A stretch of 64,000 nucleotides of DNA from Escherichia coli (GTDB taxonomy: Bacteria; Pseudomonadota; Gammaproteobacteria; Enterobacterales; Enterobacteriaceae), in the NCBI RefSeq assembly GCF_009931435.1, contig NZ_CP043414.1; one strand, given 5' to 3'. Position numbers: made by a program. This document shows, piece by piece, positions 12,001 through 15,000 of the stretch (positions are counted from its first letter, which is position 1; each line of letters opens with the position of its first letter).

Positions 12001-15000
12001 TTACCACCTGTTTGATTGCCGGTATCGGCAGTATTGCGATGGGGATATTTGCTAACTTACCCGTGGCGCTGGCTCCGGCAATGGGGCTGAACGCCTTCTT
12101 TGCGTTCGTGGTCGTGGGGGCGATGGGCATCTCCTGGCAGACCGGGATGGGCGCGATATTCTGGGGCGCAATTGGACTATTTTTGCTCACGCTGTTTCGC
12201 ATCCGGTACTGGATGATCTCCAACATTCCATTAAGTTTACGTATTGGTATCACTAGCGGAATCGGATTATTTATCGCCTTAATGGGGTTAAAAAATACTG
12301 GTGTTATTGTCGCCAATAAAGACACCCTGGTGATGATTGGTGATTTAAGTTCTCACGGTGTGTTGTTAGGTATATTAGGGTTTTTTATTATAACCGTGTT
12401 GTCATCTCGTCATTTTCATGCCGCGGTGCTGGTCTCTATTGTGGTGACGTCTTGCTGTGGATTATTTTTCGGTGATGTTCATTTTAGCGGCGTCTATTCC
12501 ATTCCGCCTGATATTAGCGGCGTCATTGGTGAAGTGGATTTGAGTGGCGCATTATCACTTGAACTCGCTGGTATCATTTTCTCCTTTATGCTGATCAACC
12601 TATTTGATTCATCAGGAACATTAATCGGTGTGACTGATAAAGCTGGCTTAATAGATAGTAACGGTAAATTCCCTAATATGAATAAGGCGCTATATGTTGA
12701 TAGCGTCAGTTCGGTGGCGGGCGCGTTTATCGGCACCTCGTCTGTTACCGCCTATATTGAAAGTACTTCTGGTGTGGCAGTTGGTGGTCGAACGGGGCTG
12801 ACTGCGGTCGTGGTCGGCATTATGTTTCTGTTGGTTATGTTTTTCTCGCCGCTGGTGGCAATGGTCCCTCCTTACGCCACCGCCGGAGCGTTAATCTTTG
12901 TTGGCGTGCTGATGACCTCAAGCCTGGCGCGCGTTAACTGGGATGATTTTACCGAATCAGTACCTGCATTTATTACTACGGTGATGATGCCCTTTACTTT
13001 CTCGATCACCGAAGGGATTGCGCTTGGCTTTATGTCGTACTGCATCATGAAGGTGTGCACCGGGCGCTGGCGCGATCTGAACCTGTGTGTGGTGGTGGTC
13101 GCTGCTCTGTTTGCACTGAAGATTATTCTGGTGGATTAGTAACTGGCGAGGGTTTCCAGATATCATGAGTTCTGATTACGCAGGAGAACTCATGATCTGG
13201 ATAATGCTCGCTACGCTGGCGGTGGTGTTTGTAATTGGTTTTCGGGTGCTGACATCCGGGGCCAGAAAGGCGATTCGCCGTCTCAGCGATCGGCTGAATA
13301 TTGATGTCGTACCCGTGGAGTCGATGGTCGATCAAATGGGAAAGTCAGCCGGTGAGGAATTTTTACGTTATTTGCATCGCCCGGATGAGTCGCACCTGCA
13401 AAACGCCGCGCAGGTGTTGCTCATCTGGCAAATTGTCATTGTCGATGGAAGCGAACAGAACCTGCTGCAATGGCATCGGATTTTACAAAAAGCTCGCCTC
13501 GCCGCTCCCATTACCGACGCTCAGGTCAGGCTGGCACTGGGTTTTCTGCGCGAAACCGAACCTGAAATGCAGGATATTAATGCTTTTCAGATGCGCTATA
13601 ACGCGTTCTTTCAGCCTGCCGAGGGCGTTCATTGGCTGCATTAAAACCGTTTCGTCTTATTAGCTTACAGACCGCGCCTGAGCTGGTGGGTGGATAAGGC
13701 GTGCACGCCGCATCCGGCATCGGAACTGACAGTAGGTGAACGCATTATCTACGTTCTATTTACAGCAGCACCTCCAGCCCGTGTTTTTGCACAATGCTGA
13801 GCAGTTTTAATGAAATGCCATTGGGGCGTTTAGCGCCACTTTCCCATTTTTGTACAGTTGAAACGCTGGTATTGAGATAGTGAGCGAAGACGGGCTGACT
13901 CACTTTTAATTTTTCCCGCAGTGCTTTTATCTCAACAGGTTGTAAGTCTTGCACGCTGGTCAGGCAGGCTTTGTCAAAAGTACGCATCGTTTCGGCAGAA
14001 ATAGCATCGACGCTGGACAATCCAGCCGCTGCGCTGTGAATAGCCTCAAATGCAGGACTTTTAAATTTAGTTTTTGCAGTCATAGCAGATCTCTGTCAGT
14101 TCTTTAGTGTTAATCATTGCTGTTAGTTGGGCTTTCGTCAGGAAGGCATAATGCTTTGCAAGTTCACGAAACCCAGCCAGTTCCTGACTATTGATGTTCG
14201 ACATATCCTGTTTTGCATATAAAAACGTGTAAAACCAATTGCTTCCCCCTTTTGCCAGAATAATTGCACGCTCACGATTTTGGTGAAGGCGCTTTTTAAA
14301 AACGCCACCACCAAGTGCATCAGCTTTACCTTGCTCCGTTTCTAAAATGGCCCGGCACAACTCTTCATCTGTTATTGCATGAGACCTGGCTTCCCTTGCA
14401 AACCATTTGGTTTTAAACACGCGCATATCGTTGAGGTCCTGTTATTAAAGTATATCACCAAGTGCAATACTTTATCCCTTATTCCCAACCCAATCGCGAA
14501 AATGCATATCAGCTTGCCCTATGATTTTTATTTCTTCGAGCAGCCTCGAACTTTTCCCACAACACCGTAAAAGTTGCAAAAACGTTAAATGTGTCACACA
14601 TTTCAGTGTTAAAGTGGTCGGCTTTTCCTCTGAAACATGCCACGGGTAACACCATGAGTGAATTTATTGCCGAAAACCGCGGCGCGAATGCCATCACCCG
14701 ACCGAACTGGTCAGCCGTTTTCTCGGTGGCGTTTTGCGTCGCCTGTCTGATTATCGTTGAGTTTTTGCCCGTCAGTTTGTTGACGCCAATGGCCCAGGAT
14801 TTAGGCATTTCGGAAGGGGTTGCCGGGCAATCGGTGACCGTGACCGCCTTTGTGGCAATGTTTGCCAGTTTGTTTATTACCCAGACAATTCAGGCCACTG
14901 ACCGCCGCTACGTTGTTATTTTGTTTGCCGTTTTGCTGACGCTCTCCTGCTTGCTGGTTTCCTTTGCTAACTCATTCAGTTTGCTTTTAATCGGTCGTGC

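What the first reader, a model, noticed from the sequence alone, without database searches (positions are those of the whole stretch)
13760..14426. Toxin-antitoxin-like pair between yicN and nepI
Two overlapping small genes (RelE/ParE-like plus HTH) sit between core genes that I recall as adjacent in K-12; a small addiction/defence module at a core locus.
Basis: inference. Interest (0 to 1): 0.4.

Follow-up and report, generated by a model that had tools for sequence, protein, structure and literature searches.

The report
HigB2-type toxin–antitoxin pair beside nepI
This is an ordinary, already-annotated chromosomal toxin–antitoxin gene pair (a RelE/HigB2-like toxin plus a DNA-binding antitoxin) that about a third of complete E. 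coli genomes keep between yicN and nepI and that the K-12 lineage most likely lost.

Summary
On the minus strand, a 119-aa ORF (14067-14426) overlaps a 107-aa ORF (13760-14083) by 17 nt. The first is a strong member of Pfam PF06296 (HigB-2/RelE-type toxins). The second has a C-terminal HTH, and its best solved relative is V. cholerae HigA-2.

The closest tested systems are Coxiella plasmid ToxP/AntitoxP (31%/55% identity) and the Salmonella ortholog STM3777/78 (relBE3ST; 70%/81%).

The toxin model has a HigB2/RelE fold. It keeps the Arg/Arg/Tyr/Lys active-site residues. A palindrome overlapping a likely -10 lies upstream, and a related palindrome is found at 73 of 77 related loci.

K-12 lacks the pair: 41 bp replace 840 module-specific bp. 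Of 5426 complete E. coli genomes, 1716 carry the pair, always as a single chromosomal copy, and 3668 have the K-12-type empty site.

Salmonella, Citrobacter, Klebsiella and a cryptic Escherichia clade hold the same pair next to nepI. It is therefore probably an old resident lost in phylogroups A/B1/C, not a recent insertion.

RefSeq already annotates it as a toxin–antitoxin system, and a published survey covers its phylogroup distribution. Interest is low. The E. coli proteins themselves appear untested.

The parts
14067..14426 (-). Toxin gene, 119 aa, HigB-2/ToxP-type RelE-superfamily toxin. The ATG at 14426 is the conserved start. PGAP aa from the GTG at 14420.
   Evidence: ORF. PF06296 142.6 bits against a cutoff of 27. 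AF2 model pLDDT 90.8. The top 11 Foldseek PDB hits are V. cholerae HigB2. R46/R53/Y70/K72 align to HigB2 R51/R64/Y82/K84. An MR[VI]FKT start is seen at nearly all orthologous loci.
13760..14083 (-). Antitoxin gene, 107 aa. The N-terminal ~45 aa are the putative toxin-binding segment. The C-terminal HTH-XRE domain spans residues 52-96.
   Evidence: ORF. HTH_3 E=6.7e-8. Best PDB hit is V. cholerae HigA-2 5jaa, E=8e-10, residues 46-102. 55% identical over its full length to Coxiella AntitoxP.
14067..14083 (-). 17-nt overlap of the toxin 3' end with the antitoxin start. Translational coupling is inferred.
   Evidence: Coordinates. The same overlap geometry is seen in most related loci.
14446..14474 (.). 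Imperfect palindrome, the candidate operator. The core is 14453-14467; on the coding strand it reads TTGCAC-TTG-GTGATA.
   Evidence: Inverted repeat I4. A homologous TAGCAC-N3-GTGCTA palindrome lies upstream of the toxin at 73 of 77 related loci, against 3.5% of control windows.
14449..14454 (-). Predicted -10 hexamer TATACT, preceded by TGn (extended -10). It overlaps the right half of the palindrome.
   Evidence: Read from the sequence. GTGCTATAGT or GTGATATACT is conserved across enterobacterial loci. The simple sigma-70 consensus scan found no -35/-10 pair, so this is an inference.
14437..14440 (-). Shine-Dalgarno AGGA, 10 nt upstream of the toxin ATG.
   Evidence: Sequence. ACAGGA is conserved at the same distance in related loci.
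13720..14559 (.). 840 bp of module-specific DNA, replaced by an unrelated 41-bp filler in K-12-type genomes. GC is 43.8% against about 51% in the flanks.
   Evidence: Junction mapping. The filler has no significant similarity to the module or to related loci.
13692..13715 (.). REP-type palindrome at the left border, between the convergent yicN and antitoxin 3' ends. It is shared with K-12 and is not part of the module. It may serve as a 3'-end hairpin.
   Evidence: Inverted repeat I3. Present in K-12. Sub-threshold Rfam naRNA4 (REP-derived) hit at 13688-13753.

Best explanation
This is a chromosomal type II toxin-antitoxin operon of the HigBA-2 / ToxP-AntitoxP family, with the toxin gene first. 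The 119-aa toxin most likely enters the ribosomal A site and cleaves translating mRNA, using Arg46, Arg53, Tyr70 and Lys72, which stops translation and growth. The 107-aa antitoxin most likely wraps its N-terminal ~45 residues around the toxin to inactivate it. Its C-terminal HTH dimer most likely binds the palindrome that overlaps the -10 of the operon promoter, so the operon represses itself. Family, fold, residue conservation, operon layout, operator conservation and distribution are shown here by computation. Toxicity, mRNA cleavage, neutralisation and DNA binding are inferred from relatives. The pair is an old resident of the nepI neighbourhood in Enterobacteriaceae. The E. coli lineages that include K-12 probably lost it in a single event that left 41 bp of unrelated filler.
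For: Family membership: PF06296 at 142.6 bits and HTH_3. Both V. cholerae HigB-2 and this toxin fall in PF06296 (PMC11980606). Fold: AF2 pLDDT 90.8, and Foldseek ranks HigB2 structures 1-11 at probability 1.00, followed by other HigB/RelE toxins. Active site: R46, R53 and K72 are nearly invariant in 42 diverse homologs. With Y70 they align to HigB2 R51/R64/Y82/K84, whose alanine mutants lose 170- to 3000-fold activity (PMC5416850). Closest tested relatives: Coxiella ToxP/AntitoxP at 31%/55% identity; ToxP inhibits translation, AntitoxP rescues and binds the promoter, and K79E (our K72) abolishes toxicity (PMC10098735). The Salmonella ortholog RelE3ST reduces cultivability (PMC4366850; orthology). 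Antitoxin: best PDB hit is HigA-2. Operator: a palindrome overlapping the -10 is found at 73 of 77 loci across alpha-, beta- and gammaproteobacteria, against 3.5% of controls. Selection: dN/dS is 0.04-0.20 for both genes. Distribution: 1716 of 5426 genomes carry the pair as a single chromosomal copy, and 3668 have the empty site. It is absent from phylogroups A, B1 and C according to PMC10790755. The same nepI-adjacent position is seen in Salmonella, Citrobacter, Klebsiella and Escherichia sp. E1V33.
Against: No experiment on the E. coli proteins was found. Similarity to the only solved relative is remote: there was no phmmer or profile hit to the PDB, and hhalign gave E=0.0018 with probability 15%. 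The beta2-beta3 loop, which matters for HigB2 activity, is 6 residues shorter here. The toxin also has an extra C-terminal helix and strand that HigB2 lacks. In Salmonella the ortholog's antitoxin (RelB3ST) failed to neutralise its toxin in one study (PMC4366850). A retracted paper placed STM3777 among the toxins without strong toxicity in E. coli (PMC3868539). SehA shows that a HigB-like fold does not guarantee RNase activity (PMC12817084). The O157:H7 allele has lost the conserved ATG start. The direction of the event (loss or gain) rests on cross-genus synteny only; the 41-bp filler gives no clue.
Confidence: 0.8

Rival explanations
1. The pair is a real toxin-antitoxin system, but the toxin does not cleave mRNA on the ribosome. 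It would act on another target, for example by inhibiting RNase III as SehA does, or by poisoning gyrase as ParE does.
For: The toxin is only remotely similar to HigB2. It has a shorter beta2-beta3 loop and a conserved extra C-terminal helix-strand with a KELxEIC motif. SehA is a precedent for a HigB-like toxin without RNase activity (PMC12817084).
Against: All four HigB2 catalytic positions are kept, and three are nearly invariant across the family. ToxP, which shares the C-terminal extension, inhibits translation in a cell-free system and loses toxicity with K79E (PMC10098735). There is no Pfam ParE hit. SehA is a different protein family: its residue numbering and gene sizes do not fit.
Confidence: 0.08
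2. The pair is a decaying or domesticated remnant. The toxin is weak or inactive in E. coli, and the HTH protein is kept mainly as a transcription factor, possibly acting on the divergent nepI promoter.
For: The pair has been held next to nepI across four genera. The toxin start lies only 227 bp from the nepI start, in divergent orientation. O157:H7 has lost the conserved ATG. The Salmonella antitoxin did not neutralise its toxin in one assay (PMC4366850). Truncated toxin ORFs occur at a few related loci.
Against: The toxin is under purifying selection about as strong as the antitoxin's (dN/dS 0.07-0.20). Its catalytic residues are intact. All 1716 E. coli copies are full length. The conserved palindrome sits on the operon's own -10, and the 94 bp next to nepI are shared with genomes that lack the pair.
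Confidence: 0.08
3. The pair is an anti-phage abortive-infection module, or a recently acquired mobile addiction islet inserted at a core locus.
For: GC is lower than in the flanks (43.8% against about 51%). Presence is patchy in E. coli. A tight, short-branched clade of the family is spread over many enterobacterial genera, and relatives sit on 183 plasmid records. RelE-superfamily toxins have been linked to defence (PMC11980606).
Against: The toxin has no PADLOC hit. There are no neighbouring defence genes, integrase or IS, and no flanking direct repeats. The pair is never on an E. coli plasmid or in a genuine phage record. It has one fixed position shared across genera, and dS is saturated between genera.
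Confidence: 0.04

Closest known systems
Salmonella Typhimurium STM3777/STM3778 (relBE3ST, SL3743/SL3744)
   Same: Positional ortholog. It is divergent from nepI, with the toxin first and the same 17-nt overlap. Identity is 70% for the toxin and 81% for the antitoxin, and the operator palindrome is similar. It is listed as a type II toxin-antitoxin system, and the toxin reduced cultivability (PMC4366850).
   Different: In Salmonella the far flank is a PTS/aldolase cluster rather than yicN. The reported antitoxin did not neutralise the toxin in that study. The link between the SL and STM locus tags rests on gene order and protein mass (11,736 against 11,754 Da), not on a sequence given in the paper.
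Coxiella burnetii plasmid QpH1 ToxP/AntitoxP (CBUA0028/CBUA0027)
   Same: Same Pfam family and same toxin-first overlapping operon. Identity is 31% for the toxin, including the C-terminal extension, and 55% for the antitoxin over its full length. Its toxicity, rescue, translation inhibition and promoter binding have been shown experimentally (PMC10098735).
   Different: It is plasmid-borne and serves plasmid maintenance. ToxP keeps the long Lys/Gly-rich beta2-beta3 loop that is shortened in the E. coli toxin.
Vibrio cholerae HigB-2/HigA-2 (PDB 5JA8, 5JAA, 8A0X)
   Same: It has the same Pfam family, and it is the best structural match to the toxin model. It has the same Arg/Arg/Tyr/Lys active-site positions. 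Its antitoxin has the same layout: a disordered N-terminal neutraliser plus a C-terminal HTH (PMC5416850).
   Different: The toxins are only about 20% identical, and there is no direct sequence hit. HigB-2 is a marginal PF06296 member (34.5 bits) and lacks the C-terminal helix-strand. It lies in the superintegron. The antitoxin N-termini are not alignable.
E. coli K-12 RelBE and HigBA (YgjN/YgjM)
   Same: Same RelE/ParE superfamily fold and the same general logic: a ribosome-dependent mRNase plus an autorepressing antitoxin (lower-ranked hits).
   Different: They belong to different Pfam families (PF05016, PF09907/PF05015). RelBE has the antitoxin first with an RHH fold. There is no detectable sequence similarity.

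Membership tests
Pfam PF06296 (HigB-2/ToxP-type RelE toxins) | Score above the family's gathering threshold over the whole domain | tested here: met
   142.6 bits against a cutoff of 27; residues 1-113 match model positions 1-120 of 120.
Pfam PF06296 (HigB-2/ToxP-type RelE toxins) | RelE/BECR fold | tested here: met
   AF2 model pLDDT 90.8. Foldseek PDB ranks 1-11 are HigB2 at probability 1.00 and TM 0.5-0.6, followed by HigB/RelE toxins. This is a predicted structure, not a solved one.
Pfam PF06296 (HigB-2/ToxP-type RelE toxins) | Active-site Arg, Arg, Tyr, Lys (HigB2 R51, R64, Y82, K84) | tested here: met
   R46, R53, Y70 and K72 align to them. R46, R53 and K72 are at least 90% conserved in 42 homologs, and Y70 is Tyr or Phe.
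Pfam PF06296 (HigB-2/ToxP-type RelE toxins) | Ribosome-dependent mRNA cleavage and growth arrest | not testable with these tools
   Known for VcHigB2 (PMC5416850). Translation inhibition is shown for ToxP (PMC10098735), and toxicity for Salmonella RelE3ST (PMC4366850).
Type II toxin-antitoxin operon, HigBA-2 layout | Two small co-oriented genes, toxin upstream, overlapping or abutting | tested here: met
   17-nt overlap with the toxin first. The same layout is seen in 80 related loci.
Type II toxin-antitoxin operon, HigBA-2 layout | Antitoxin with a C-terminal HTH-XRE domain and a separate N-terminal toxin-binding segment | tested here: inconclusive
   The HTH is met. The N-terminal 45 aa are conserved with AntitoxP. 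In a toxin-linker-antitoxin fusion model they are modelled as helices at pLDDT 72-94, but no coordinates were available to check contact with the toxin.
Type II toxin-antitoxin operon, HigBA-2 layout | Palindromic operator in the operon promoter | tested here: met
   The palindrome at 14446-14474 overlaps a TGnTATACT element. The homologous palindrome is found at 73 of 77 loci against 3.5% of controls. Binding itself was not tested.
Type II toxin-antitoxin operon, HigBA-2 layout | Antitoxin neutralises the toxin | not testable with these tools
   Shown for AntitoxP and HigA2. Reported as failing for Salmonella RelB3ST (PMC4366850).
Salmonella SehAB (HigB-like RNase III inhibitor) | Sequence correspondence to SehA/SehB | tested here: not met
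   The SehA residues cited (Y53, R54, K56, D61, H88...) and a sehB gene of at least 429 nt do not fit the Salmonella homolog P0037 or this pair. SehAB is STM4031/4030.S, whereas the ortholog here is STM3777/78.
ParE gyrase-poison toxins (PF05016) | Match to the ParE/RelE PF05016 model | tested here: not met
   PF06296 is the only toxin family hit at E<=0.01.
Known anti-phage defence systems (PADLOC) | Match of the effector to a defence-system model, and a defence-island context | tested here: not met
   The toxin has no hit, and the antitoxin has only generic HTH hits. The neighbours are adeD, adeQ, yicN, nepI and iatC.
Mobile islet (IS, integrase or transposon insertion) | Terminal repeats, target-site duplication or mobility genes | tested here: not met
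   No flanking direct or terminal inverted repeats. There are no mobility genes. The empty site carries an unrelated 41-bp filler.

The most novel reading that the evidence does not exclude
The core PF06296 clade may not work like V. cholerae HigB-2. This clade has a short beta2-beta3 loop and an extra conserved C-terminal helix-strand, and no member has a solved structure. The pair has stayed divergent from nepI across Escherichia, Salmonella, Citrobacter and Klebsiella. It may persist because it has been domesticated. For example, the HTH protein might tune nepI (purine nucleoside efflux), or the toxin might need a further factor. The second idea would also explain why the Salmonella antitoxin failed to neutralise its toxin.
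Probability: 0.07. Interest if true: 0.45.

Novelty: already known. Interest (0 to 1): 0.12.

Why it matters
It matters little beyond bookkeeping. The result fixes the family (HigB-2/ToxP, not classical RelBE/ParDE), the likely operator and the exact borders of a presence/absence polymorphism. That polymorphism separates E. coli phylogroups A/B1/C from B2/D/E/F. The result also suggests that K-12 lost an old Enterobacteriaceae toxin-antitoxin pair rather than that pathogens gained one. K-12 is therefore a clean natural null background for testing this pair. The E. coli pair would also be a convenient model for the structurally unsolved core of PF06296.

Tried and rejected
Several checks led nowhere or were rejected.

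- **SehAB identity.** I suspected the pair was the E. coli counterpart of Salmonella SehAB. The residue numbers, gene sizes and locus tags differ, so I rejected this.
- **PDB sequence searches with the toxin.** phmmer and a 42-sequence profile gave no hit, even to HigB2. The link needed Pfam co-membership, hhalign and a fold search.
- **Origin of K-12's 41-bp filler.** Its best matches to the module and to syntenic loci of other genera lie within the range of shuffled controls. It gives no direct evidence for deletion or insertion.
- **Flanking repeats.** No direct or terminal inverted repeats mark the borders.
- **Consensus scans.** The promoter and terminator scans found nothing in 13600-14700. 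The promoter proposal rests on comparative conservation only.
- **Rfam.** It returned only two sub-threshold hits: REP-derived naRNA4 and a spurious miRNA.
- **PADLOC.** Nothing for the toxin.
- **Phage collection.** The only hit is a Salmonella chromosomal contig mis-filed there. The two top 'plasmid' hits are mislabelled chromosomes.
- **Fusion model.** A toxin-linker-antitoxin AF2 model ran, but coordinates are not exposed, so the interface could not be examined.
- **Literature.** Searches by RefSeq protein accession and by yicN/nepI plus toxin-antitoxin found no paper on the E. coli pair.
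Full report
**1. Observation**

The ORF list shows two minus-strand ORFs at the stated coordinates. One spans 14067-14426 (119 aa). The other spans 13760-14083 (107 aa) and overlaps the first by 17 nt, with the longer ORF upstream. 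They sit between yicN (13165-13644, +) and nepI (ATG at 14654, +).

RefSeq annotation of the near-identical strain 2020CK-00188 and of O157:H7 gives the order adeD, adeQ, yicN, HTH protein, RelE/ParE-family toxin, nepI. In K-12, yicN and nepI are separated by only 210 bp, with no gene between them.

**2. What the two proteins are**

*Toxin family.* The 119-aa protein matches Pfam PF06296 ('RelE') end to end at 142.6 bits (cutoff 27). A 2025 review of the RelE/ParE superfamily assigns PF06296 to HigB-2-type toxins, which are ribosome-dependent mRNases with toxin-antitoxin gene order (PMC11980606).

*Antitoxin family.* The 107-aa protein has an HTH_3 domain at residues 52-96. Its best solved relative is the V. 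cholerae antitoxin HigA-2 (5jaa, E=8e-10, aligned over the HTH half only).

*Link to the solved toxin.* The toxin has no sequence-level hit in the PDB, either alone or as a 42-sequence profile. I checked the V. cholerae HigB-2 sequence against PDB chain 5ja9_C and found it identical. HigB-2 is itself only a marginal PF06296 member at 34.5 bits. The E. coli protein therefore represents the structurally unsolved core of the family.

*Toxin structure model.* An AF2 model from the 42-sequence alignment is confident (pLDDT 90.8). Its eleven best Foldseek matches in the PDB are all HigB2 chains (probability 1.00, TM 0.5-0.6, about 20% identity). Other HigB and RelE toxins follow.

*Active site.* Profile alignment places R46, R53, Y70 and K72 on HigB2 R51, R64, Y82 and K84. 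Alanine mutants of those four HigB2 residues lose 170- to 3000-fold activity (PMC5416850). R46, R53 and K72 are nearly invariant across the family.

*Differences from HigB2.* The beta2-beta3 loop is six residues shorter. There is an additional C-terminal helix and strand (residues 98-115) carrying a conserved KELxEIC motif.

**3. Closest tested relatives**

*Coxiella.* The plasmid search found relatives on 183 plasmid records, 19 of them from Coxiella. Coxiella QpH1 ToxP/AntitoxP (CBUA0028/27) are 31% and 55% identical to the two proteins over their full length. For that pair, toxicity, rescue by the antitoxin, inhibition of cell-free translation and promoter binding have all been shown. A spontaneous K79E change abolished toxicity (PMC10098735). 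K79 is the counterpart of K72 here.

*Salmonella.* The Salmonella relative (70%/81% identity) lies next to nepI and carries the LT2 tags STM3777/STM3778. By locus order and protein mass it is relBE3ST (SL3743/44) of Lobato-Marquez et al. That toxin reduced cultivability, but the antitoxin did not neutralise it in their assay (PMC4366850). A retracted paper also listed STM3777-78 as a toxin-antitoxin pair and placed the toxin in a weak-toxicity group (PMC3868539). I give that paper little weight.

*SehAB.* I first suspected Salmonella SehAB. It is a different locus and a different family.

**4. Regulation**

An imperfect palindrome lies 20-48 nt upstream of the toxin ATG (14446-14474). On the coding strand its core reads TTGCAC-TTG-GTGATA. 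It runs directly into TATACT preceded by TGn, which is an extended -10-like element. An AGGA lies 10 nt before the ATG.

Upstream regions of about 40 enterobacterial homologs show the same arrangement, with a perfect TAGCAC-N3-GTGCTA followed by TAGT/TACT. Across 77 loci from alpha-, beta- and gammaproteobacteria in unrelated contexts, 73 have CAC-N3-5-GTG within 100 nt upstream. Only 3.5% of control windows do.

This is good comparative evidence for an operator recognised by the conserved HTH, and so for autorepression of the kind shown for AntitoxP. The simple consensus scans found no promoter or terminator, so the -10 assignment remains an inference. A REP palindrome (13692-13715) between the convergent yicN and antitoxin ends may provide the 3' hairpin.

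**5. Are the genes maintained?**

Both genes are under purifying selection. dN/dS is 0.06-0.20 within Escherichia. Against Klebsiella and Citrobacter orthologs it is 0.04-0.11 where it could be computed; synonymous sites are saturated there. All 1716 E. coli copies are full length, and 1715 of them are at least 95% identical. The O157:H7 allele has ATA in place of the conserved ATG. This probably explains why PGAP starts the protein at the GTG two codons downstream.

**6. The polymorphism and its history**

*Borders.* The module-specific DNA is 13720-14559 (840 bp, GC 43.8% against about 51% in the flanks). K-12 has an unrelated 41-bp filler between the same junctions.

*Frequencies.* Of 5426 complete E. 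coli genomes, 1716 carry the pair, always once and always on the chromosome. Another 3668 have the K-12-type empty site. A published survey reports that RelE-domain toxins are absent from phylogroups A, B1 and C (PMC10790755), which fits.

*No mobility signatures.* There are no flanking repeats or mobility genes. The filler resembles nothing in the module or in related loci beyond chance.

*Synteny across genera.* The same pair lies between yicN and nepI in Escherichia sp. E1V33, Citrobacter amalonaticus and five Klebsiella species, and next to nepI in Salmonella. In a neighbour-joining tree these syntenic copies are deep, long branches. A separate tight clade is spread over many genera and looks mobile.

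*Inference.* I therefore infer ancient residence at this locus and a single loss in E. coli, rather than an insertion. This is an inference.

*Recombination.* The empty allele, with an identical filler, also occurs on an O157-like nepI haplotype (strain E11). The occupied allele occurs on both nepI haplotypes. Recombination has therefore shuffled the two states among backgrounds.

**7. Rivals**

- A non-RNase mechanism cannot be excluded without experiments. However, the active-site residues are conserved and ToxP inhibits translation.
- A decayed or domesticated module is argued against by selection on the toxin.
- A defence or mobile-islet reading lacks any positive evidence.

**8. Verdict**

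The pair is a HigBA-2/ToxP-AntitoxP-family type II toxin-antitoxin system. It is already annotated as such in RefSeq and has been counted in surveys. An ortholog has been tested in Salmonella, and the mechanism has been worked out in relatives. I found no experimental work on the E. coli proteins themselves. Interest is low.

Noticed in passing
window 16041 to about 33000 (+), downstream of nepI: A large island lies between nepI and yicS. It holds the inverse-autotransporter adhesin iatC (9.7 kb), eilA (HilA-family regulator), IpaD/SipD- and YopB/SseC-family type III translocator genes and a SycD-like chaperone, close to tRNA-Sec. It is absent from K-12 and O157:H7, where yicS follows nepI directly.
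   Followed up: partly
window 14654-15838 (nepI), compared with L001, L003, L085: nepI has two deeply diverged haplotypes in E. coli (93-94% nucleotide identity, dS about 0.25). They do not track presence or absence of the toxin-antitoxin pair. The window has the pair plus a K-12-like nepI. Strain E11 has the empty site plus an O157-like nepI. This implies recombination at the locus.
   Followed up: partly
window 14424-14426; L003 3268-3276: O157:H7 alleles carry ATA instead of the conserved ATG start of the toxin. PGAP annotates a 117-aa product from the GTG at codon 3 in all strains. Whether the O157 toxin is made at normal levels is unknown.
   Followed up: no
window 13688-13753: A REP-type palindrome sits exactly at the left border of the module-specific DNA and is shared with K-12. 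It gives a sub-threshold Rfam hit to the REP-derived naRNA4 (33.9 bits against a gathering score of 59.5).
   Followed up: partly
L086 4001-4667 (Salmonella Infantis contig AFYI01000003.1): The Salmonella ortholog (STM3777/78, relBE3ST) was reported to have a toxic toxin whose neighbouring antitoxin did not neutralise it. The contig itself is a chromosomal fragment mis-filed in the phage collection.
   Followed up: partly
NZ_CP172818.1 3737310-3737934 (E. coli HS-02, hit H116): One 'E. coli' genome carries a copy of the pair that is only 77% identical, with only the toxin annotated. It may be a divergent lineage or a replaced allele.
   Followed up: no
L023 and L034 (Erwinia mallotivora contig_45, about 13 kb apart): Two copies of the pair lie on one contig. 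Together with a short-branched clade shared by Enterobacter, Edwardsiella, Erwinia, Serratia and Pectobacterium, this suggests that one sub-lineage of the family is horizontally mobile.
   Followed up: no
L003 656-1989 (O157:H7 MB41-1): adeQ (adenine permease), two genes away from the pair, is annotated as frameshifted in this O157:H7 genome.
   Followed up: no
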